A stretch of DNA of 64,000 bases, from the sequence record MH791413.1; one strand, written 5' to 3'. This document shows, piece after piece, positions 46,903-51,909 of the stretch. The notes beneath the pieces are model-generated. The model saw only the letters and a list, made by a program, of their open reading frames with translations. It did not search any database and was not told where the DNA came from. The stretch is from Escherichia phage EcSzw_1. Every line of letters begins with the position of its first letter. Position 1 is the stretch's first letter. Made by a program: the position numbers and the translations under genes.

Positions 46903-47100
46903 TTATTCAGCAGCAACTTCTGGAGACTCAACACCAAACTTCTCATCAACTGCGTTTAACAGTTCGTCCATGTTGGTTTCTTTAATGTCTTTACCAGTTG
47001 CATTAGCTAGACGGTGAGCAACACTGATAATAGTGTTCTGCAACAGTTCGGCTCTTTTGTTTGCTTCATAAAGTTCTTTATAAACATTAGTCTCGTTCAT
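46903..47100 (-). CDS. Hypothetical small protein
   Basis: 65 aa; too small for a typical small terminase. Confidence 0.4.
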   Translation of the reverse strand: MNETNVYKELYEANKRAELLQNTIISVAHRLANATGKDIKETNMDELLNAVDEKFGVESPEVAAE

Positions 47101-47138
47101 TGTATTTCTCCAAAAATAATAAGTGAATGGTTCCCCTG

Positions 47139-47162
47139 AAAAAAGACGGCGCAGAGACCGTC
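47139..47162 (-). terminator. Rho-independent terminator at 3' end of tRNA array
   Basis: Minus strand stem GACGG/CCGTC followed by TTTTTT. Confidence 0.55.
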
Positions 47163-47322
47163 AAGGAGAAACCACAATGTATGCCAGAGACATACTGTAT
47201 AAGCCTTCTTATAAAGTATACATCTGTAAAAAAGCCCTGTCTAAAAATACTCTTCGGTAGCGAAAGGAAGAATACTCGTAGCAGGGCGTTATTATTTTAT
47301 TTTGAGAGAGAGTAAAATAATT

Positions 47323-47398
47323 TGGAGCGTCGAAAGGGAGTCGAACCCTCATAATCCTGTTTTGCAGACAGGTACATAGCCATTTCTGTCATCGACGC
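47323..47398 (-). tRNA. tRNA-Cys (GCA)
   Basis: Hand-folded cloverleaf: acceptor GCGTCGA/TCGACGC, anticodon loop CTGCAAA, T-loop TTCGACT, CCA encoded. Confidence 0.75.
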
Positions 47399-47405
47399 AT
47401 TAAAT

Positions 47406-47498
47406 TGGAGGAAGATACCAGACTTGAACTGGTACGCCGATTTCTCGGTTACTGACAGTTTAGCAAACTGTTCCCTTACCTTTTAGGGTTAATCTTCC
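47406..47498 (-). tRNA. tRNA-Ser (GCT), class II
   Basis: 93 nt; acceptor GGAAGAT/ATCTTCC; anticodon loop TTGCTAA; long variable arm. Confidence 0.75.
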
Positions 47499-47500
47499 AA

Positions 47501-48235
47501 TTATTTGTTCAAGGCATCCTTCATTTCTGGAGTTGCAATTGAATCAATCACGCCAGTTTTACAAGCATCATCAAACCAGTCTGGTAAGACACCTGCAAGG
47601 AAACCATTAATATTCGTTTTCAAGTAATCAGCAATTAACGCTGCTTCATCTGCAATCATCTGAGTGACCTCATTAGTGTATGCAGTAATCTTAGCAATGC
47701 CCTGATTAATCGCTGTAACGGCTTGTGAGGCTAAGGAAGAGATAGTGTCTAGTCCTTTGTCGATTGCGTCTTTTAAGTCGCTTAGAATGCCATTCACAGT
47801 GTCTATGGAGGTGTTAATCAAATCCATAGCTTGTTGACCGTACTCTGTAGCTACTCCCATGATTCCACTAAACGGTGTACAACCAACTTGTTCTCCTGCT
47901 GCACCCATAACGTTAGAGTAACCTTTAGCTACCTGCATACGTGATGAGAACTCATCTACAGAAGTCTGACCGTATTGAGTCAGTGTGTTAGTTGTCGTTG
48001 TAGTGCTTCCAAGGCTCGTTGAGAAGCTACTTAACAAGGCTGTAGTCAAACCAGCAGCAATAAGTTTATCTTTTACTGTAGGGTCTGATACCGAGCTAAT
48101 AGAGCTTACTAATGAAGTAGAAGCGGCAATTGTGCCACCAAGGATTGCTGCACCAGTAATAAGGGGGTTGGAAAACCCGTTACCGGATTTCAGGAGATTA
48201 AAAATCTCTTTACCTTGTTCTGTCATCTCTTTCAT
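47501..48235 (-). CDS. Hypothetical Ser/Thr/Ala-rich protein inside tRNA array
   Basis: 244-aa ORF. Confidence 0.5.
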   Translation of the reverse strand: MKEMTEQGKEIFNLLKSGNGFSNPLITGAAILGGTIAASTSLVSSISSVSDPTVKDKLIAAGLTTALLSSFSTSLGSTTTTTNTLTQYGQTSVDEFSSRMQVAKGYSNVMGAAGEQVGCTPFSGIMGVATEYGQQAMDLINTSIDTVNGILSDLKDAIDKGLDTISSLASQAVTAINQGIAKITAYTNEVTQMIADEAALIADYLKTNINGFLAGVLPDWFDDACKTGVIDSIATPEMKDALNK

Positions 48236-48252
48236 TAAGCACCTTTTGAAAT

Positions 48253-48329
48253 TGGCGGGTTAGTGGGATTTGAACCCTCTTCTCATGTTTTTCAGACACG
48301 CGCTTTAACCATATAAGCTACTTAACCCA
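48253..48329 (-). tRNA. tRNA-Phe (GAA)
   Basis: Anticodon loop CTGAAAA; T-loop TTCAAAT; 3' register uncertain by 1 nt. Confidence 0.65.
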
Positions 48330-48336
48330 TTAAATT

Positions 48337-48413
48337 TGGGGTGACCTACGGGAATCGAACCCGTATAGACCATGTTCACAGCATGGGTCATTATCCATTT
48401 ATGATAAGGCCAC
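48337..48413 (-). tRNA. tRNA-His (GTG)
   Basis: Anticodon stem-loop CCATG-CTGTGAA-CATGG; T-loop TTCGATT. Confidence 0.7.
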
Positions 48414-48444
48414 ATGTAAGGACTCTCGTAAGAACCCTTAGAAG

Positions 48445-48520
48445 TGGCAGCAGCGTAAGGATTTGAACCTTAATCTTTCAGCTTCAGAGGCTGGAGCATT
48501 GCCAGTTATGCTACACTGCT
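48445..48520 (-). tRNA. tRNA-Gln (CTG)
   Basis: D stem GCAT/ATGC; anticodon loop CTCTGAA; T arm TAAGG-TTCAAAT-CCTTA. Confidence 0.65.
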
Positions 48521-48527
48521 ATTAATT

Positions 48528-48606
48528 TGGTACTCCATATCGGATTCGAACCGATACATAACACAGATTTTAAGTCTGGCCTCTCTGCCAATTGGAGTAA
48601 TGGAGC
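48528..48606 (-). tRNA. tRNA with Leu anticodon TAA but short (7-nt) variable region
   Basis: 79 nt; anticodon CAGA-CTTAAAA-TCTG; D loop AATTGGCAGAG; A73; no long variable arm. Confidence 0.55.
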
Positions 48607-48608
48607 AT

Positions 48609-48685
48609 TGGCGGGGGATGTTGGAATTGAACCAACTTCTTCGATTTCAAAGACCGAGGTTTTAACCTTGTAAACTAATCCCCTT
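48609..48685 (-). tRNA. tRNA-Gln (TTG)
   Basis: Anticodon stem-loop TCGGT-CTTTGAA-ATCGA; T arm GTTGG-TTCAATT-CCAAC. Confidence 0.65.
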
Positions 48686-48692
48686 TAAATCT

Positions 48693-49250
48693 TTACTTTC
48701 TTAGTGGATGAATAAAGAATGCCAACATAATTCTTTCCCTTGAGAATGCTCTTTCTTCTGGGACAACACTTTTAAGTTTCCATCCAACATAAATTCTCCA
48801 GTAAAACTGTTTACCAAAGACTTTAATTGATGGGATAAAAGCGAATAATCCCCAAGCATTACTATTCCACATTAGGAGATAACCTGTCTGATTATCTTCA
48901 GGGTTAGAACTTACGTTGATATTACCTTTCCACTTAGTAACATCTTTTACATCTCTTCCCAATACATGGTAAGAGAAGTTATAAGCTTTGTTTCTCCAGA
49001 GCCATCCAACTCTCTGCATATAAACACCGAGCTTGCCAATCTTTCGAATCTTAGCCCACCGTTCAACGTGACCTTTGTCACCGTCAATCGGGTTGTCATA
49101 AGTCTCCATCCATCTGAATCCAAAAGGCAAGTGACCTTTCTTCTCACTGTAGAATGGAACTACAAAGGGTGCTAAGATTACTGCTAAGATTGCTGCAAAT
49201 GGCTCTAGCAAAGCTAGGAAAATCCATGAAGCATACTTCAAATATCTCAT
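48693..49250 (-). CDS. Membrane protein, hypothetical, inside tRNA array
   Basis: 185 aa with N-terminal hydrophobic helices. Confidence 0.5.
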   Translation of the reverse strand: MRYLKYASWIFLALLEPFAAILAVILAPFVVPFYSEKKGHLPFGFRWMETYDNPIDGDKGHVERWAKIRKIGKLGVYMQRVGWLWRNKAYNFSYHVLGRDVKDVTKWKGNINVSSNPEDNQTGYLLMWNSNAWGLFAFIPSIKVFGKQFYWRIYVGWKLKSVVPEERAFSRERIMLAFFIHPLRK

Positions 49251-49269
49251 TTAAATAGCCTCTTTAAAT

Positions 49270-49346
49270 TGGTGCAGAATAAGGGATTCGAACCCCTAAC
49301 AAACAACTTCGTAGGTTGCTGCTCTATCCATTTGAACTAATTCTGC
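49270..49346 (-). tRNA. tRNA-Arg (ACG)
   Basis: Acceptor GCAGAAT/ATTCTGC; anticodon loop CTACGAA; T-loop TTCGAAT. Confidence 0.7.
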
Positions 49347-49508
49347 AATGTTCTTTTGAGATTCCTGTCTAGCTCTCTTCTTATCTCTTCTGAGAAAGCG
49401 TCTACGATGGTCTGTACGCCACTTGTAGTAATCTTCTTCACCATCGTGAGAAGCACAGCAACCACAACTTGCAATTTCAACTTTACCGTGTCTACCATAA
49501 GGCTTCAT
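49296..49508 (-). CDS. Small Cys-rich basic protein, questionable (3' end overlaps tRNA-Arg)
   Basis: 70 aa with AGGAGA SD before ATG 49508, but last 50 nt overlap tRNA 49270..49346. Confidence 0.3.
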   Translation of the reverse strand: MKPYGRHGKVEIASCGCCASHDGEEDYYKWRTDHRRRFLRRDKKRARQESQKNIAELVQMDRAATYEVVC

Positions 49509-49524
49509 AGGAATCTCCTAAAAT

Positions 49525-49602
49525 TGGTGTTCCAAGACGGATTCGAACCGTCACTAATACAAGGTTTGAGCTTGCATCCTCTGCCAATTGGGATACTGGA
49601 AC
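49525..49602 (-). tRNA. tRNA with Leu anticodon CAA but short variable region
   Basis: 78 nt; anticodon GCAAG-CTCAAAC-CTTGT; D loop AATTGGCAGAGG; A73. Confidence 0.55.
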
Positions 49603-49604
49603 AT

Positions 49605-49679
49605 TGGTACTCGCTGAAGGACTTGAACCTTCTTCACCAACTTGTAAGGATGGGGCTTTACCGTATAAACTAAGCGAGT
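49605..49679 (-). tRNA. tRNA-Val (TAC)
   Basis: Acceptor ACTCGCT/AGCGAGT; anticodon loop CTTACAA; T arm GAAGG-TTCAAGT-CCTTC. Confidence 0.65.
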
Positions 49680-49775
49680 ATGAAAAGAGGTCTGAAGTTG
49701 TGCCGCTAACTCAACTCCGTGGAATTTGTTACGGTCTTCAGTTGACTCAAGCGGTCTTTCACTCGACCTCTGAAT
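49680..49775 (-). ncRNA. Structured non-tRNA spacer element (candidate small stable RNA)
   Basis: 96-nt gap between two tRNAs; nested inverted repeats GAGGTC/GACCTC, TGAAG/CTTCA, CCGT/ACGG; no T-loop. Confidence 0.3.
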
Positions 49776-49852
49776 TGGTGCTGCTCACAGGAGTTGAACC
49801 TGCATCTCCATCCTTACAAGGGATGTGTAATAGCCAATTATACGAAAGCAGC
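49776..49852 (-). tRNA. tRNA-Thr (TGT)
   Basis: Anticodon stem-loop CATCC-CTTGTAA-GGATG; T-loop TTCAACT. Confidence 0.7.
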
Positions 49853-49858
49853 ATTATT

Positions 49859-49933
49859 TGGAGCATCCAGAGGGAATCGAACCCTCAACCTCAGTTTGGA
49901 AGACTGTAATTTTCCCGTTTAAACTATGGATGC
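49859..49933 (-). tRNA. tRNA-Gly (TCC)
   Basis: Acceptor GCATCCA/TGGATGC; anticodon loop CTTCCAA; T arm GAGGG-TTCGATT-CCCTC. Confidence 0.7.
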
Positions 49934-49939
49934 ACTAAT

Positions 49940-50015
49940 TGGTGGAGAAGCAGGGAATTGAACCCTGTACTTAAGTTTGCAAAACTTATGTTTTAACCAT
50001 GTAAACTACATCCCC
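49940..50015 (-). tRNA. tRNA-Ala (TGC)
   Basis: Anticodon stem-loop TAAGT-TTTGCAA-ACTTA; T arm CAGGG-TTCAATT-CCCTG. Confidence 0.7.
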
Positions 50016-50021
50016 GATATT

Positions 50022-50097
50022 TGGTACAGGTGGAGGGAATTGAACCCATCGTCTTACTGATTAAGAGTCAGCCGCATAACCATTTTGCTACACCTGC
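50022..50097 (-). tRNA. tRNA-Lys (CTT)
   Basis: Anticodon GCTGA-CTCTTAA-TCAGT; T stem weak (GGG/CCC plus two mismatches). Confidence 0.55.
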
Positions 50098-50104
50098 ATT
50101 AATT

Positions 50105-50181
50105 TGGTACACCTAGAGAGAGTCGAACTCACACTGAACAGATTCTAAGTCTGCTGCCTCTTCCAATTGGGCTATAGGTGC
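50105..50181 (-). tRNA. tRNA with Leu anticodon TAG but short variable region
   Basis: 77 nt; anticodon GCAGA-CTTAGAA-TCTGT; D loop AATTGGAAGAGG; A73. Confidence 0.55.
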
Positions 50182-50182
50182 A

Positions 50183-50635
50183 TTAAATCAAATGTCTTGA
50201 GAATTGACTATGACAATTTGGACACAAGAATCTTAAGTTTTCTTTTCTATCGTCTAACCAGTTTTCGTTGATATGGTCAACATCAAGTGTTAGTGGTTTA
50301 CCTAACCATTCTGGTTGCTGTCCACACTTAGAGCATTTGTATTCAACACCAGAAGCTATTAAAGCCCTTCTAAGTTGTGTTGACCTTGCTCTTTCACCTG
50401 ATTCACGAAGAATCAAGATTTCTTCAGGCTTTCTTTTTGGTAAAGTTTTAACCTTACCTGCCTTTTGTCCAAGGAAATGAGAAGTATCTAACTCAAACTT
50501 CTCTATAACACGTTTCAAGTGTGACTGAGAACCACCTGCTGGTTTTCTTCCAAGCTTGATAAGTACTTCTCTAAATGATACTGATTCTTTCACTAAAGGT
50601 TCAAGAACCTCTTTAGTCAAACTTCTACGTGTCAT
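50183..50635 (-). CDS. HNH homing-type endonuclease
   Basis: C-terminal LDVDHINENWLDDRKENLRFLCPNCH; inside tRNA array. Confidence 0.7.
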   Translation of the reverse strand: MTRRSLTKEVLEPLVKESVSFREVLIKLGRKPAGGSQSHLKRVIEKFELDTSHFLGQKAGKVKTLPKRKPEEILILRESGERARSTQLRRALIASGVEYKCSKCGQQPEWLGKPLTLDVDHINENWLDDRKENLRFLCPNCHSQFSRHLI

Positions 50636-50893
50636 GTGTCAATCTCCCATTAAATCTTTGTAGAGAACTGCTAAGACGCCAAAGCAACAATGGTATCAAA
50701 TGCCTTAACAATTCTCTAAAAAGACCTAACTGGTCTTTGCATAGTCTTGTTTAATCCGGTGACTAGAACCTTTGGAGAGCTTGATATTATCTCTTCTCCG
50801 TGACACCTACTAGGTGCTTTACTGTGCGTGTACGACAATACACGAGGGAAACCGAACGCAACGACGAAGTAGCGCAGGTCTTAAATCTCATTA

Positions 50894-50983
50894 GGCGGTA
50901 GATAAAGGAGTCGAACCCTCACCGTATCACTACAATGGCAACAGTTTTCAAGACTGTTTGGCTTCCATTAGCCGCTATCTACC
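50894..50983 (-). tRNA. tRNA-Ser (TGA), class II
   Basis: Acceptor GGTAGAT/ATCTACC; anticodon ACAGT-CTTGAAA-ACTGT; long variable arm; 3' CCA not encoded. Confidence 0.65.
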
Positions 50984-50996
50984 CCTAATAAGACTT

Positions 50997-51079
50997 TGGC
51001 ATGGGACGGAGGATTCGAACCCCTTTGAGTAAGTTTTGGAGGCTTACGCTCATGCCTTAGAGTCTTAACATCGTCCCAT
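50997..51079 (-). tRNA. tRNA-Trp (CCA), atypical extended D region
   Basis: Acceptor ATGGGAC/GTCCCAT; anticodon loop CTCCAAA as in E. coli tRNA-Trp; T-loop TTCGAAT; D region about 7 nt longer than canonical. Confidence 0.5.
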
Positions 51080-51221
51080 ACTACAATTCGAAGCTTACCG
51101 TATTATCACAACACTGTAAAGCCCCTTCTCAGATTTTTTACATGTTCTGGAAAACATGAGATACAGACCACCTCCATACAGGAAGACCCGCTAAGGTCGT
51201 CTAAGTAATCTGCTAACTATT

Positions 51222-51289
51222 TGGCAGTCAAGGTAGGAGTCGAACCTACTTACTATCGAAGGTAGCTAACCTTCAGTAACTTTCCGACT
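51222..51289 (-). ncRNA. Degenerate tRNA-like element lacking a D arm
   Basis: 68 nt; canonical T arm GTAGG-TTCGACT-CCTAC and CCA; hairpin GAAGG-TTAGCTA-CCTTC; no D arm. Confidence 0.35.
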
Positions 51290-51348
51290 TTCGTACACCT
51301 GCTAACATGTATTCAGATGGCTTACTAGTGTTGTCTTGACCATTAAAC

Positions 51349-51425
51349 TGGCACACCCTACAGGACTCGAACCTGTAACTCAGTGCTTAGAAGGCACTTG
51401 CTCTATCCAATTGAACTAAGGGTGC
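51349..51425 (-). tRNA. tRNA-Arg (TCT)
   Basis: D arm GTTC-AATTGGATA-GAGC; anticodon AGTGC-CTTCTAA-GCACT; T arm ACAGG-TTCGAGT-CCTGT. Confidence 0.75.
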
Positions 51426-51675
51426 ATTCTTATCTTTAAAGGCTCTCTTAGAAAACCCTTAAAGATGCCCACATTATTAATCATACCGTGGGCGAGTACG
51501 CCAAATTCTTTGATGAGGGGTTGGAAGACCTCACTGGTGTTTAGCCTATTAAGCTACTGCCAGAAAAACATTATCGTTTGCATTTATTTTAGTTTGCAAA
51601 AATAGACGCTACGCTAACGAAAACTAAGGTTACTATAAAGTGGTCACATCTGAATGTCAACAACTTTATCAAATT

Positions 51676-51750
51676 TGGTAGTGGTAGCAGGAATCGAACC
51701 TGCGATGTTCGGTTATCAGCCGAGTGTTATGACCGTCTTAACTATACCAC
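51676..51750 (-). tRNA. tRNA-Ile (GAT)
   Basis: Anticodon loop CTGATAA; T arm GCAGG-TTCGATT-CCTGC. Confidence 0.7.
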
Positions 51751-51753
51751 CAT

Positions 51754-51830
51754 TGGAGGTTCAGATGGGATTCGAACCCACATTCATAGGGCTTATGAAA
51801 CCCTTGCATTACCTTATCTGCGACTGAACC
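51754..51830 (-). tRNA. tRNA-Met (CAT); could be initiator, elongator or Ile2
   Basis: Acceptor GGTTCAG/CTGAACC; anticodon AGGGT-TTCATAA-GCCCT with three G:C pairs; T-loop TTCGAAT. Confidence 0.65.
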
Positions 51831-51909
51831 ATAATAAGTTGCCCTTTGGAGAAGAGCTATTGAGTGGGTGTTTCCAGCCGCGCAGGTGTTCTTCAGTTAA
51901 GGGCGAATT

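What the first reader, a model, noticed from the sequence alone, without database searches (positions are those of the whole stretch)
49680..49775. 96-nt highly structured spacer between tRNA-Val and tRNA-Thr
Adjacent tRNAs elsewhere are separated by 2-10 nt, but here a 96-nt segment forms nested inverted repeats (GAGGTC/GACCTC outer, TGAAG/CTTCA, CCGT/ACGG inner) with no T-loop. It is a candidate co-transcribed small stable RNA, by analogy with the stable RNA species encoded in the T4 tRNA region.
Basis: seen in the sequence. Interest (0 to 1): 0.45.

Follow-up and report, generated by a model that had tools for sequence, protein, structure and literature searches.

The report
Conserved structured RNA between phage tRNAs
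The 96-base gap between two tRNA genes of this Felix O1-like phage is a strongly conserved, rod-shaped small non-coding RNA gene belonging to no described family; its function is unknown, and it is not the partner RNA of the phage's Ro60-like protein, a role that fits four other RNAs found nearby.

Summary
Window 49680-49775 (minus strand, like all 25 tRNAs) lies between tRNA-Thr and tRNA-Val. It folds into a rod (-31.4 kcal/mol, z -3.8) and has no tRNA features and no Rfam match. The phage is a Felix O1-like myovirus (Ounavirinae). The element occurs in about 260 phage records. It is as conserved as the neighbouring tRNAs (0.95-0.96 pairwise identity; tRNA-Thr 0.86, tRNA-Val 0.93). Two helices show compensatory changes, and every one-sided change keeps a G.U pair on the tRNA strand only. 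A copy moved horizontally into Avunavirus phages (Vequintavirinae). There its apical 52 nt stay 92% identical, while silent sites of the co-transferred gene fall to 46%. It is therefore a functional RNA, most likely a stable small RNA cut out of the tRNA precursor and recognised through invariant loops. I tested whether it is the Y RNA of the phage's Ro60-fold protein, encoded upstream. It is not. Four other spacers form a strongly covarying family, one with a YrlA-like tRNA-mimic domain, and that family tracks the Ro-like gene. The 96-nt element does not track it. It is not homologous to T4 species 1/2 RNAs. Its function remains unknown.

The parts
49685..49772 (-). Core of the element: an 88-nt rod-like RNA with four conserved helices (H1, H3, H5, H6), two internal loops, one 5-nt bulge and a 10-nt apical loop.
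   Evidence: Covariance model R1 scores 115.9 bits, E 3.5e-30. The RNAalifold consensus on 51 homologues gives the same helices. The single-sequence fold has z -3.78.
49765..49771 (-). H1 5' strand, AGAGGUC (closing stem).
   Evidence: It pairs with 49686-49692. The third pair G-C becomes U-A in the Avunavirus copies (compensatory) and G-U in L047.
49686..49692 (-). H1 3' strand, GACCUCU, followed by a short variable U-rich tail up to tRNA-Val.
49751..49754 (-). H3 5' strand, CCGC.
   Evidence: It pairs with GCGG at 49703-49706. G-C becomes A-U in L043/L044, with a G-U intermediate in L063.
49703..49706 (-). H3 3' strand, GCGG.
49740..49745 (-). H5 5' strand, UCAACU.
   Evidence: It pairs with AGUUGA at 49711-49716. 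U-A becomes U-G in five homologues.
49711..49716 (-). H5 3' strand, AGUUGA.
49735..49739 (-). Invariant 5-nt purine bulge GAAGA. It is part of the string CUGAAGACCGU, which is shared with the neighbouring CAGCAA-stem RNAs.
   Evidence: It is invariant in all 51 homologues.
49717..49734 (-). Apical hairpin H6 (CCGU/ACGG) with the invariant 10-nt loop AACAAAUUCC.
   Evidence: The loop is invariant in 51 homologues, including Avunavirus. The stem G-C becomes G-U in Avunavirus.
49776..49852 (-). tRNA-Thr(UGU) with encoded CCA. Its 3' processing would define the 5' end of the element (inferred).
49605..49679 (-). tRNA-Val(UAC). RNase P cleavage at its 5' end would define the 3' end of the element (inferred).

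Best explanation
The spacer is a stand-alone gene for a small non-coding RNA of about 88-92 nt. It is transcribed as part of the phage's polycistronic tRNA precursor. Normal host tRNA processing would release it: an endonucleolytic cut just 3' of the CCA of tRNA-Thr, then RNase P cleavage at the 5' end of tRNA-Val. The covarying 7-bp closing stem H1 then clamps both ends, and the RNA persists as a rod. Its working part is the apical 52 nt: helices H3, H5 and H6 presenting the invariant GAAGA bulge and AACAAAUUCC loop. A trans factor reads these single-stranded nucleotides. Because the element stays under selection in phages with and without the Ro60-like gene, that factor is most likely a protein or RNA of the enterobacterial host, so the element would act as a decoy or scaffold. 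Shown here: conserved structure, strand specificity, tRNA-level purifying selection, horizontal transfer as an intact module, and independence from the Ro-like gene and from DUF7338. Inferred: the processing route, stability as a discrete RNA, action in trans, and the kind of partner.
For: Fold z -3.78 on the tRNA strand.

Among 51 homologues (20 distinct rows), 95.6% of cells pair. There are two compensatory pairs, in H1 and H3. No shuffle of 500 reaches the covariation score, and slid controls pair at only 26-43%.

All seven pairs that show a one-sided change keep a G.U pair on the minus strand; on the plus strand these would be A.C mismatches.

Mean pairwise identity among 39 distinct Ounavirinae haplotypes is 0.95-0.96. 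The neighbours score 0.86 (tRNA-Thr), 0.93 (tRNA-Val) and 0.98 (tRNA-Leu).

Between the window and Av-05, the apical 52 nt are 0.92 identical, the basal arms 0.67 and tRNA-Gly 0.89. Third codon positions of the co-transferred DUF7338 gene are 0.46.

Indels fall only in internal loops and shift the frame of the only plausible micro-ORF.

The element is single-copy, with no paralogue in the cluster.

A promoter-like site at 51660 and a terminator-like site at 47162 bracket it on the same strand, and no consensus terminator is predicted at the element itself.

Av-05 carries the element but has no Ro-like homologue in its whole genome. DUF7338 is absent from Mooglevirus-type loci and from L046, which have the element.
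Against: There are no expression or end-mapping data for any Felix O1-like phage, so a discrete stable RNA is unproven.

Sequence variation is small: only two fully compensatory pairs. RNAalifold's covariation term is near zero (-0.09).

No partner is identified. The invariant loop has no enriched complementary target in the window, and E. coli genomes hold no homologue.

Related phages do without the element: the Kolesnikvirus loci L035 and L036, and loci L040-L042. It is therefore accessory.

Conservation within Ounavirinae partly reflects recent common ancestry.
Confidence: 0.5

Rival explanations
1. It is a Y RNA, the non-coding partner of the phage's Ro60-like protein (window 53296-54567, minus strand). 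The closing stem and its 5' strand, GGUCGAG, would bind the Ro ring, as GGUCCGA does in animal Y RNAs. The apical part would tether another factor such as PNPase.
For: The upstream ORF (Pfam DUF2828 + DUF7788) has a Ro60 fold. The model has pLDDT 88, and the 12 best PDB matches are all Ro60, with TM 0.52-0.66. A preprint on Bas63, another Felixounavirus, proposes that some RNAs of the tRNA stretch are Y RNAs for this protein (PMC11482910). The size and rod shape fit, with a terminal stem and internal loops. GGUC(G/A)AG lies near the 5' end, where Y RNAs carry GGUCCGA or GNCGAAN0-1G (PMC4201824). The string CUGAAGACCGU is shared with the neighbouring Ro-associated RNA family.
Against: Rfam Y_RNA and YrlA give no match on the element at E<=10. 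The motif GNCGAAN0-1G is absent from it. Phyletic patterns disagree. Av-05 keeps the element under strong selection with no Ro-like gene. The Ro-like-positive loci L040, L041, L042 and L066 lack it. A different RNA family, with four copies in the window and one with a YrlA-like tRNA-mimic domain, does co-occur with the Ro-like gene in every locus tested. Its model does not match the element.
Confidence: 0.12
2. It acts only in cis. It would be a structured spacer that guides or insulates processing of the tRNA precursor, for example as an RNase III or RNase E entry site or a barrier to exonucleases. Alternatively it would be a pause or weak terminator that sets the ratio of upstream to downstream tRNAs. 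It would have no function once excised.
For: It always sits directly 3' of a tRNA CCA end: Thr in Ounavirinae, Gly in Avunavirus. The closing stem is followed by a short U-rich tail. Other spacers of the same cluster are also hairpins.
Against: Most tRNA junctions in the same operon need only 2-9 nt. The 10-nt apical loop and the 5-nt bulge are invariant while the basal arms drift to 67% identity. That pattern is the opposite of what a mere duplex signal would show. The U tail is short and variable, and the terminator scan does not call the element. In Av-05 the element is followed by a protein gene, not a tRNA, yet stays conserved. In Kolesnikvirus and L041, tRNA-Thr and tRNA-Val are only 4-35 nt apart, with no such element between them.
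Confidence: 0.2
3. It is a non-functional leftover, for example a decayed tRNA or the scar of a mobile insertion. On this view it looks conserved only because the phages are closely related.
For: It is missing from related phages. The tRNA cluster is a hot spot for insertions: an HNH ORF at 50183-50635, and an endonuclease VII-like gene inserted between tRNA-Gly and tRNA-Thr in SFPB and FO1a.
Against: It shows compensatory and G.U-only changes. It is more conserved than two flanking tRNAs. The apical 52 nt are 92% identical across a divergence at which silent sites are 46% identical. It has no tRNA-like arm.
Confidence: 0.05
4. It works at the DNA level, as a promoter, a protein-binding site or a cruciform, rather than as RNA.
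For: An inverted repeat can also form in DNA. The plus strand folds almost as well (-31.3 kcal/mol, z -3.1).
Against: All one-sided changes are G.U-compatible on the minus strand only. No promoter-like site is called in the element. The only weak -35-like hexamer, TTGAGT, is destroyed in the commonest variant, TGGTGT.
Confidence: 0.03

Closest known systems
Phage T4 small stable RNAs, species 1 (rnaC, 139 nt) and species 2 (rnaD, 119 nt)
   Same: These are non-tRNA RNAs encoded inside a phage tRNA cluster on the tRNA strand. They lie 1-6 nt from the neighbouring tRNA or RNA, so the tRNA-processing enzymes would release them. Their function is unknown (my knowledge).
   Different: No homology: model R1 gives no match on rnaC or rnaD. 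T4 rnaC ends in a tRNA-like T-arm, CCGGGUUCGAAUCCCGG, whereas this element has no tRNA-like arm. The sizes differ, and so does the shape; this one is a single rod.
Y RNAs: animal Y RNAs (Rfam RF00019) and bacterial or phage YrlA (RF02553), the partners of Ro60/Rsr
   Same: It is about 90-100 nt, with its 5' and 3' ends paired in a stem and with internal loops. It is encoded a few kilobases from a Ro60-fold protein gene. Its 5' strand, GGUC(G/A)AG, loosely resembles GGUCCGA.
   Different: No covariance-model match. The GNCGAAN0-1G motif is absent, and so is a tRNA-like domain. Its distribution is uncoupled from the Ro-like gene.
The CAGCAA-stem RNA family found here in the same tRNA cluster (window 52894-52966, 52738-52808, 52271-52353 and 52130-52266, minus strand). 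I found no description of it.
   Same: Same operon and strand, and in two of the copies the same position directly after a tRNA CCA end. The layout is similar: helix, purine-rich 5' bulge, helix. The string (C)WGAAGACCGU is shared.
   Different: The family's invariant features are absent from the element. These are the AG...CU pairs, the bulged G on the 3' strand and the UWWCAGCAA motif. Model R2 does not match the element at E<=10. The family co-occurs with the Ro-like gene, and the element does not.

Membership tests
tRNA or tRNA-like pseudogene | Cloverleaf with a T-arm (GTTCRANNC loop), a D-arm and a 7-bp acceptor stem adjacent to the T-arm. | tested here: not met
   ARAGORN makes no call. 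Rfam tRNA and the tRNA clan give no match on 49680-49775 even at E<=10. There is no hairpin next to the 3' strand of the closing stem.
Y RNA / YrlA | Match to the Rfam covariance models RF00019 or RF02553. | tested here: not met
   No match on the element at E<=10 or E<=5. The only YrlA line is a 19.9-bit chance match spanning tRNA-Phe and tRNA-His.
Y RNA / YrlA | Ro-binding motif near the 5' end: GNCGAAN0-1G in bacteria, GGUCCGA in animals (PMC4201824). | tested here: not met
   The regular expression is absent from the spacer. The nearest strings are GUCGAGUG in the window, GUCAAGUG in most relatives and GUCAAUG in Av-05.
Y RNA / YrlA | Co-occurrence with a Ro60/Rsr gene. | tested here: not met
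   The Ro60-fold gene is present in the window. But the element is present without it in the complete Av-05 genome. The element is absent from the Ro-like-positive loci L040-L042 and L066.
Y RNA / YrlA | Physical binding to Ro60. | not testable with these tools
   This needs RNA immunoprecipitation or a gel-shift assay.
CAGCAA-stem RNAs of Ro-like-encoding phages (family defined here) | Stem a, then a 3-nt A-rich 5' bulge, then helix b that starts AG and ends CU, then a bulged G, with UWWCAGCAA after the 5' strand of helix b. | tested here: not met
   Model R2 finds all four window copies and the copies in L040, L041, L042, L046 and L066. It does not find 49680-49775 at E<=10. The element has no CAGCAA and no CUG 3' motif.
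T4 species 1 / species 2 RNAs | Sequence and structure homology to rnaC or rnaD. | tested here: not met
   R1 with filters off on the T4 tRNA region gives no match on the minus strand at 1909-2172 of L065.
T4 species 1 / species 2 RNAs | Discrete stable RNA produced from the tRNA precursor. | not testable with these tools
   No transcript data were found for Felix O1-like phages.
Intrinsic terminator | G+C-rich hairpin with a loop of 3-8 nt, followed directly by a run of at least 5 T in 8. | tested here: not met
   The scan of 47000-53500 calls nothing at the element. The tail is UUUUCAU, UUUCAU or UUCAAAG and varies.
Self-cleaving ribozymes found next to phage tRNAs (HDV-like/theta, hammerhead, twister, pistol, hatchet) | Match to the family model, or a conserved P1 that starts at the cleavage site. 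| tested here: not met
   No Rfam ribozyme family matches at E<=10. The 4-7 nt between CCA and H1, which would have to form P1, are not conserved (AUUC, AUUUU, AUUU, UCUAA). An HDV-like nested double pseudoknot could not be threaded by hand; that step is inference.
Small protein gene | A reading frame kept among relatives. | tested here: not met
   The only ORF with a Shine-Dalgarno sequence is an 18-codon one starting at GUG. A 1-nt insertion (CCGCUUUGAG variants) and 1-2-nt deletions in Av-05 shift its frame.

The most novel reading that the evidence does not exclude
The element is a horizontally mobile, host-directed small RNA. It would travel between unrelated enterobacterial phage families together with tRNA cargo. 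It would work as a decoy or sponge for a host RNA-binding factor, such as a ribonuclease, an RNA chaperone or a sensor or effector of an anti-phage system, through its invariant GAAGA bulge and AACAAAUUCC loop. That would make it a new class of phage-encoded RNA counter-measure hidden in tRNA arrays.
Probability: 0.2. Interest if true: 0.7.

Novelty: new member of a known kind. Interest (0 to 1): 0.45.

Why it matters
Felix O1-like phages are classic Salmonella typing phages and are widely used as biocontrol and therapy candidates. Yet about 260 deposited genomes leave this stretch unannotated or call a spurious protein on it. A gene kept as tightly as a tRNA, and kept after transfer into another phage subfamily, is likely to matter for infection. 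Phage tRNA arrays are now understood partly as counter-measures to host tRNA-targeting defences, so non-tRNA RNAs embedded in them are natural candidates for further RNA-based host manipulation. The follow-up also separates this element from the probable Y-like RNAs of the phage's Ro60-like protein. That gives direct, testable candidates for a question left open in the Bas63 work: which RNAs does gp130 bind?

Tried and rejected
1. Known RNA family. Rfam 15, at gathering thresholds and at E<=10, finds nothing on the element.

2. Degenerate tRNA. Rejected: no arms.

3. Micro-ORF (GUG plus 18 codons behind GAGG). Rejected because indels shift its frame.

4. Site of the endonuclease insertion seen in SFPB and FO1a. 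Rejected: that insertion lies between tRNA-Gly and tRNA-Thr.

5. Y RNA of the Ro60-like protein. This was pursued in depth: Pfam, an AlphaFold model and Foldseek for the protein, then motif, covariance-model and phyletic tests for the RNA. It is judged unlikely for this element, but the work led to the CAGCAA-stem family.

6. Functional coupling to the DUF7338 membrane protein. That gene is 79% identical in Av-05 and lies just downstream of the element. Rejected as a strict link: Mooglevirus-type loci and L046 have the element without DUF7338, and T4-like phages have DUF7338 without the element.

7. Promoter or terminator. Not called.

8. Base-pairing target of the apical loop in the window. 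No enrichment: 12 matches against 11.5 expected.

9. Host homologue or mimicry of a host RNA. None in 5,426 E. coli genomes.

10. Homology to T4 rnaC or rnaD. None.

11. Paralogues in the cluster. None.

12. More distant homologues. Pattern scans of IMG/VR and of metagenome contigs returned, apart from a few chance matches, only Ounavirinae-like and Avunavirus-like copies. The genome-contig scan was not used.

13. HDV-like or theta ribozyme threading by hand. It failed: no conserved P1.

14. Sequence-profile search of the Ro-like alignment against PDB sequences. It found nothing; only the fold comparison showed Ro60.

Full report
**What the window is.** A 401-nt stretch around the finding is 100% identical to Escherichia phage EcSzw-2. 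It is 84-98% identical to about 250 Felixounavirus, Mooglevirus and Suspvirus genomes (Ounavirinae, the Felix O1-like myoviruses). ARAGORN finds 24 tRNA genes and Rfam adds one more at 52973-53044. All lie on the minus strand between 47323 and 53128.

**The observation.** The spacer 49680-49775 lies between tRNA-Thr(UGU) at 49776-49852 and tRNA-Val(UAC) at 49605-49679. In the direction of transcription it reads CCA-AUUC-[element]-UUUCAU-tRNA-Val.
- The minus-strand RNA folds into one rod at -31.4 kcal/mol. Shuffles average -19.7 +/- 3.1 (z -3.78, 0 of 200 as good).
- Nothing in Rfam 15 matches it, even at E<=10.
- It has no tRNA arm.
- The cluster also contains other long ORF-free spacers of 31, 79, 81, 85 and 164 nt. 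The 96-nt gap is therefore not the only exception to tight tRNA spacing.

**Conservation and structure.**
- BLAST finds the element in 263 phage records. Of these, 251 are at least 95% identical.
- Pattern scans of IMG/VR and of metagenome contigs, followed by a covariance model (R1), gave 51 copies and 20 distinct sequences.
- RNAalifold predicts four helices: H1 (6-7 bp), H3 (4 bp), H5 (6 bp) and H6 (4 bp). They are separated by a 10x10 internal loop, a smaller internal loop and a 5-nt bulge (GAAGA), and are capped by a 10-nt loop (AACAAAUUCC).
- 95.6% of cells pair, against 26-43% when the partners are slid by 1-3 columns.
- Two pairs change on both sides. In H1, G-C becomes U-A in the Avunavirus copies. 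In H3, G-C becomes A-U in L043/L044, with a G-U intermediate in L063.
- All seven pairs with a one-sided change stay as G.U on the minus strand. On the plus strand or in DNA these would be A.C mismatches. The selected molecule is therefore RNA of the tRNA strand.
- Indels occur only in internal loops. They shift the frame of the only ORF-like reading, a GUG followed by 18 codons.
- A helix H2 (GAGU/ACUU), present in the single-sequence fold, is not kept in Av-05 and is not part of the consensus.

**Strength of selection.**
- Among 39 distinct Ounavirinae haplotypes, mean pairwise identity is 0.95 for the full spacer and 0.96 for the core. The neighbours score 0.86 (tRNA-Thr), 0.93 (tRNA-Val) and 0.98 (tRNA-Leu).
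- The element also occurs in Avunavirus-like phages of a different subfamily, Vequintavirinae: Av-05, TH18, 24-2-1 and two metagenome contigs. There it directly follows tRNA-Gly(UCC) and precedes a protein gene.
- Within the 64-kb window, the only protein that Av-05 shares at high identity is the 185-aa DUF7338 membrane protein just downstream (79% identity). All other matches are 22-36% identical.
- So a block of tRNA-Gly, the element and DUF7338 moved horizontally.
- Across that divergence, third codon positions of DUF7338 are 46% identical and tRNA-Gly is 89% identical. The apical 52 nt of the element are 92% identical and its basal arms 67%.
- A clamp that keeps its pairing but not its sequence, below an apical domain with invariant unpaired nucleotides, is what a trans-recognised RNA would show. 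A mere processing duplex would not.

**Is it the Y RNA of the phage's Ro-like protein?** This was the most attractive lead.
- The ORF at 53296-54567 lies just upstream of the cluster and matches Pfam DUF2828 + DUF7788.
- A model built from a 32-sequence alignment (pLDDT 88) has only Ro60 structures as its 12 best PDB matches. These are from Xenopus, human, Deinococcus and Thermus phage phiLo, with TM 0.52-0.66.
- A sequence profile alone does not see this relationship.
- A preprint on the Felixounavirus Bas63 noted the same fold for gp130. It guessed that some 'tRNA genes' are Y RNAs (PMC11482910).
- Similar guesses exist for a Listeria P100-like phage (PMC12282133). Y-like RNAs have been shown to bind the phage phiLo Ro60 (PMC12135203).
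- The 96-nt element fails the tests. It has no Rfam Y_RNA or YrlA match and no GNCGAAN0-1G motif. Its distribution is also wrong.
- The complete Av-05 genome has the element but no Ro-like homologue. This holds by tblastn, by Pfam on the two Av-05 ORFs of Ro60-like length (451 and 478 aa), and by profile comparison.
- Three more distant Ounavirinae-like contigs (L040-L042) and Klebsiella phage FBKp34 (L066) have the Ro-like gene and a tRNA cluster but no element.

**What tracks the Ro-like gene instead.**
- The heptamer GAAGACC is over-represented in the window: 27 copies against 6.4 expected. Following it up showed four other spacers of the cluster that share one module.
- The module is: a 4-5-bp stem a, a 3-nt A-rich 5' bulge, a 7-bp helix b that always starts AG and ends CU, a bulged G, and the motif UWWCAGCAA after the 5' strand of helix b.
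- The four copies lie at 52894-52966, 52738-52808, 52271-52353 and 52130-52266.
- The fourth encloses a T-arm (GAAGGUUCGAUUCCUUC), a covarying hairpin and a D-arm-like hairpin (GUGUAAUGGGAGCAC). I read this as the permuted tRNA-mimic layout described for YrlA (PMC4201824). It also explains the weak Rfam tRNA match at 52182-52245.
- In a 15-sequence alignment, 9 of 11 pairs show compensatory changes and 96% of cells pair. Shuffles give 70% and slid controls 28-46%.
- The model R2 finds three to four copies in every Ro-like-positive locus searched: the window, L040, L041, L042 and L046. It finds three more in tandem in the 480-nt gap between the Ro-like gene and the first tRNA of FBKp34, a third subfamily.
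- R2 finds none in the Ro-like-negative Kolesnikvirus tRNA regions (L035, L036) or in Av-05.
- R2 does not match the 96-nt element.
- These RNAs, not the finding, are the likely Ro partners. The element shares with them only the string CUGAAGACCGU and a helix-bulge-helix layout. That may reflect common descent or a shared minor contact, but it is not membership.

**Other ideas tested.**
- Promoter or terminator: no consensus site in the element. A promoter-like site at 51660 and a terminator-like site at 47162 bracket it on the minus strand, which fits co-transcription with the tRNAs.
- Coupling to DUF7338: not strict.
- Target of the apical loop in the window: none above chance.
- Homologue in E. 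coli genomes: none.
- Paralogue in the cluster: none.
- T4: rnaD and rnaC sit in the same kind of place, directly after tRNA-Arg, but they are not homologous. rnaC has a T-arm.
- Kolesnikvirus phages have tRNA-Thr and tRNA-Val 4-6 nt apart, and L041 has them 35 nt apart with an unrelated small hairpin. The element is therefore an accessory insertion, not a decayed tRNA in place.

**Conclusion.** The finding is real. It is a previously unannotated, single-copy gene for a structured RNA of about 88-92 nt inside the tRNA operon, under tRNA-like purifying selection, and able to move between phage families.
- Most likely (about 0.5): it is released by the tRNA-processing enzymes as a stable small RNA and read in trans through its invariant bulge and loop. 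The partner would be a factor that is not the phage Ro-like protein, and probably a host factor.
- Rivals: a purely cis role in precursor processing (about 0.2) and a Ro/Y-RNA role (about 0.12).
- Its expression, its ends and its partner are all untested.
- In kind it resembles the T4 stable RNAs: non-tRNA RNAs of unknown function in phage tRNA clusters. It is a new family rather than a new principle.

Noticed in passing
window 52894-52966, 52738-52808, 52271-52353, 52130-52266 (minus strand); also L040 9218-9750, L041 12381-13589, L042 11661-13361, L046 2284-2912, L066 11385-11672: A family of structured RNAs lies in the tRNA cluster. Each has stem a, an A-rich 5' bulge, a helix that starts AG and ends CU with a bulged G, and the motif UWWCAGCAA. 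Nine of 11 pairs covary. The fourth window copy encloses a permuted tRNA-like domain (T-arm, hairpin, D-arm), as described for YrlA. Model R2 finds the family in every locus that encodes the DUF2828 Ro60-like protein, across three phage subfamilies, and in none of the loci without it. These are the likely Y RNAs of this phage Ro protein. I found no description of them.
   Followed up: partly
window 53296-54567 (minus strand), extending to about 54711: This ORF matches Pfam DUF2828 + DUF7788 and is annotated 'hypothetical' or 'RNA-binding'. It has a Ro60 (TROVE + vWA) fold: the 12 best PDB matches are all Ro60. In this genome a +1 frameshift after about codon 37 cuts off the first ~48 residues that 471-aa relatives have. 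This may be a sequencing error or a real disruption.
   Followed up: yes
window 48693-49250 (minus strand); L004 1847-2389: A 185-aa DUF7338 membrane protein lies inside the tRNA cluster. It is 79% identical to Av-05 gp008, while all other shared proteins are 22-36% identical. A block of tRNA-Gly(UCC), the 96-nt element and DUF7338 was therefore exchanged between Ounavirinae and Avunavirus. The protein is widespread in T4-like phages and is sometimes annotated as a holin.
   Followed up: partly
window 52973-53044 (minus strand): Rfam finds a tRNA here (53.7 bits) that ARAGORN missed. It is probably the tRNA-Glu annotated at this position in related records.
   Followed up: no
window 52500-52580 (minus strand): Weak tRNA-like match (22.8 bits, below the gathering score) in the 164-nt spacer after tRNA-Asp. 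It possibly corresponds to the 'pseudo-tRNA (Tyr)' reported for Felix O1.
   Followed up: no
window 51831-51909 and 48414-48444 (minus strand): Two further ORF-free spacers fold into hairpins. The 79-nt one between tRNA-Lys and tRNA-Met contains AACUGAAGA, a 9-mer shared with the 96-nt element. The 31-nt one between tRNA-His and tRNA-Gln is a 10-bp hairpin. Neither matches model R1 or R2.
   Followed up: partly
window 50183-50635 (minus strand); L001 953-1297; L003 948-1361: An HNH endonuclease ORF lies inside the tRNA cluster. In SFPB and FO1a a ~420-bp insertion encoding an 'endonuclease VII'-like protein lies between tRNA-Gly and tRNA-Thr and is absent from the window. The cluster is a hot spot for mobile endonuclease genes.
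   Followed up: partly
L004 1271-1419 (Av-05, between tRNA-Tyr and tRNA-Gly): This 150-nt unannotated stretch holds a long hairpin (CUGUACUGGC...GCCAGUACAG), then a tRNA-like sequence ending CCACCA that ARAGORN does not call.
   Followed up: no
window 51632-51660 (minus strand): A near-consensus sigma-70-type promoter (TTGACA, 17 nt, TATAGT; 11 of 12 matches) lies inside the tRNA cluster. This suggests the cluster is more than one transcription unit.
   Followed up: no
L066 9854-11773 (Klebsiella phage vB_KpM_FBKp34): The order Ro-like gene, then non-coding RNAs, then tRNA cluster is kept in a Stephanstirmvirinae phage. Genes for NAD salvage (NadV, PRPP synthetase) lie just upstream, as in Felix O1-like phages.
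   Followed up: partly
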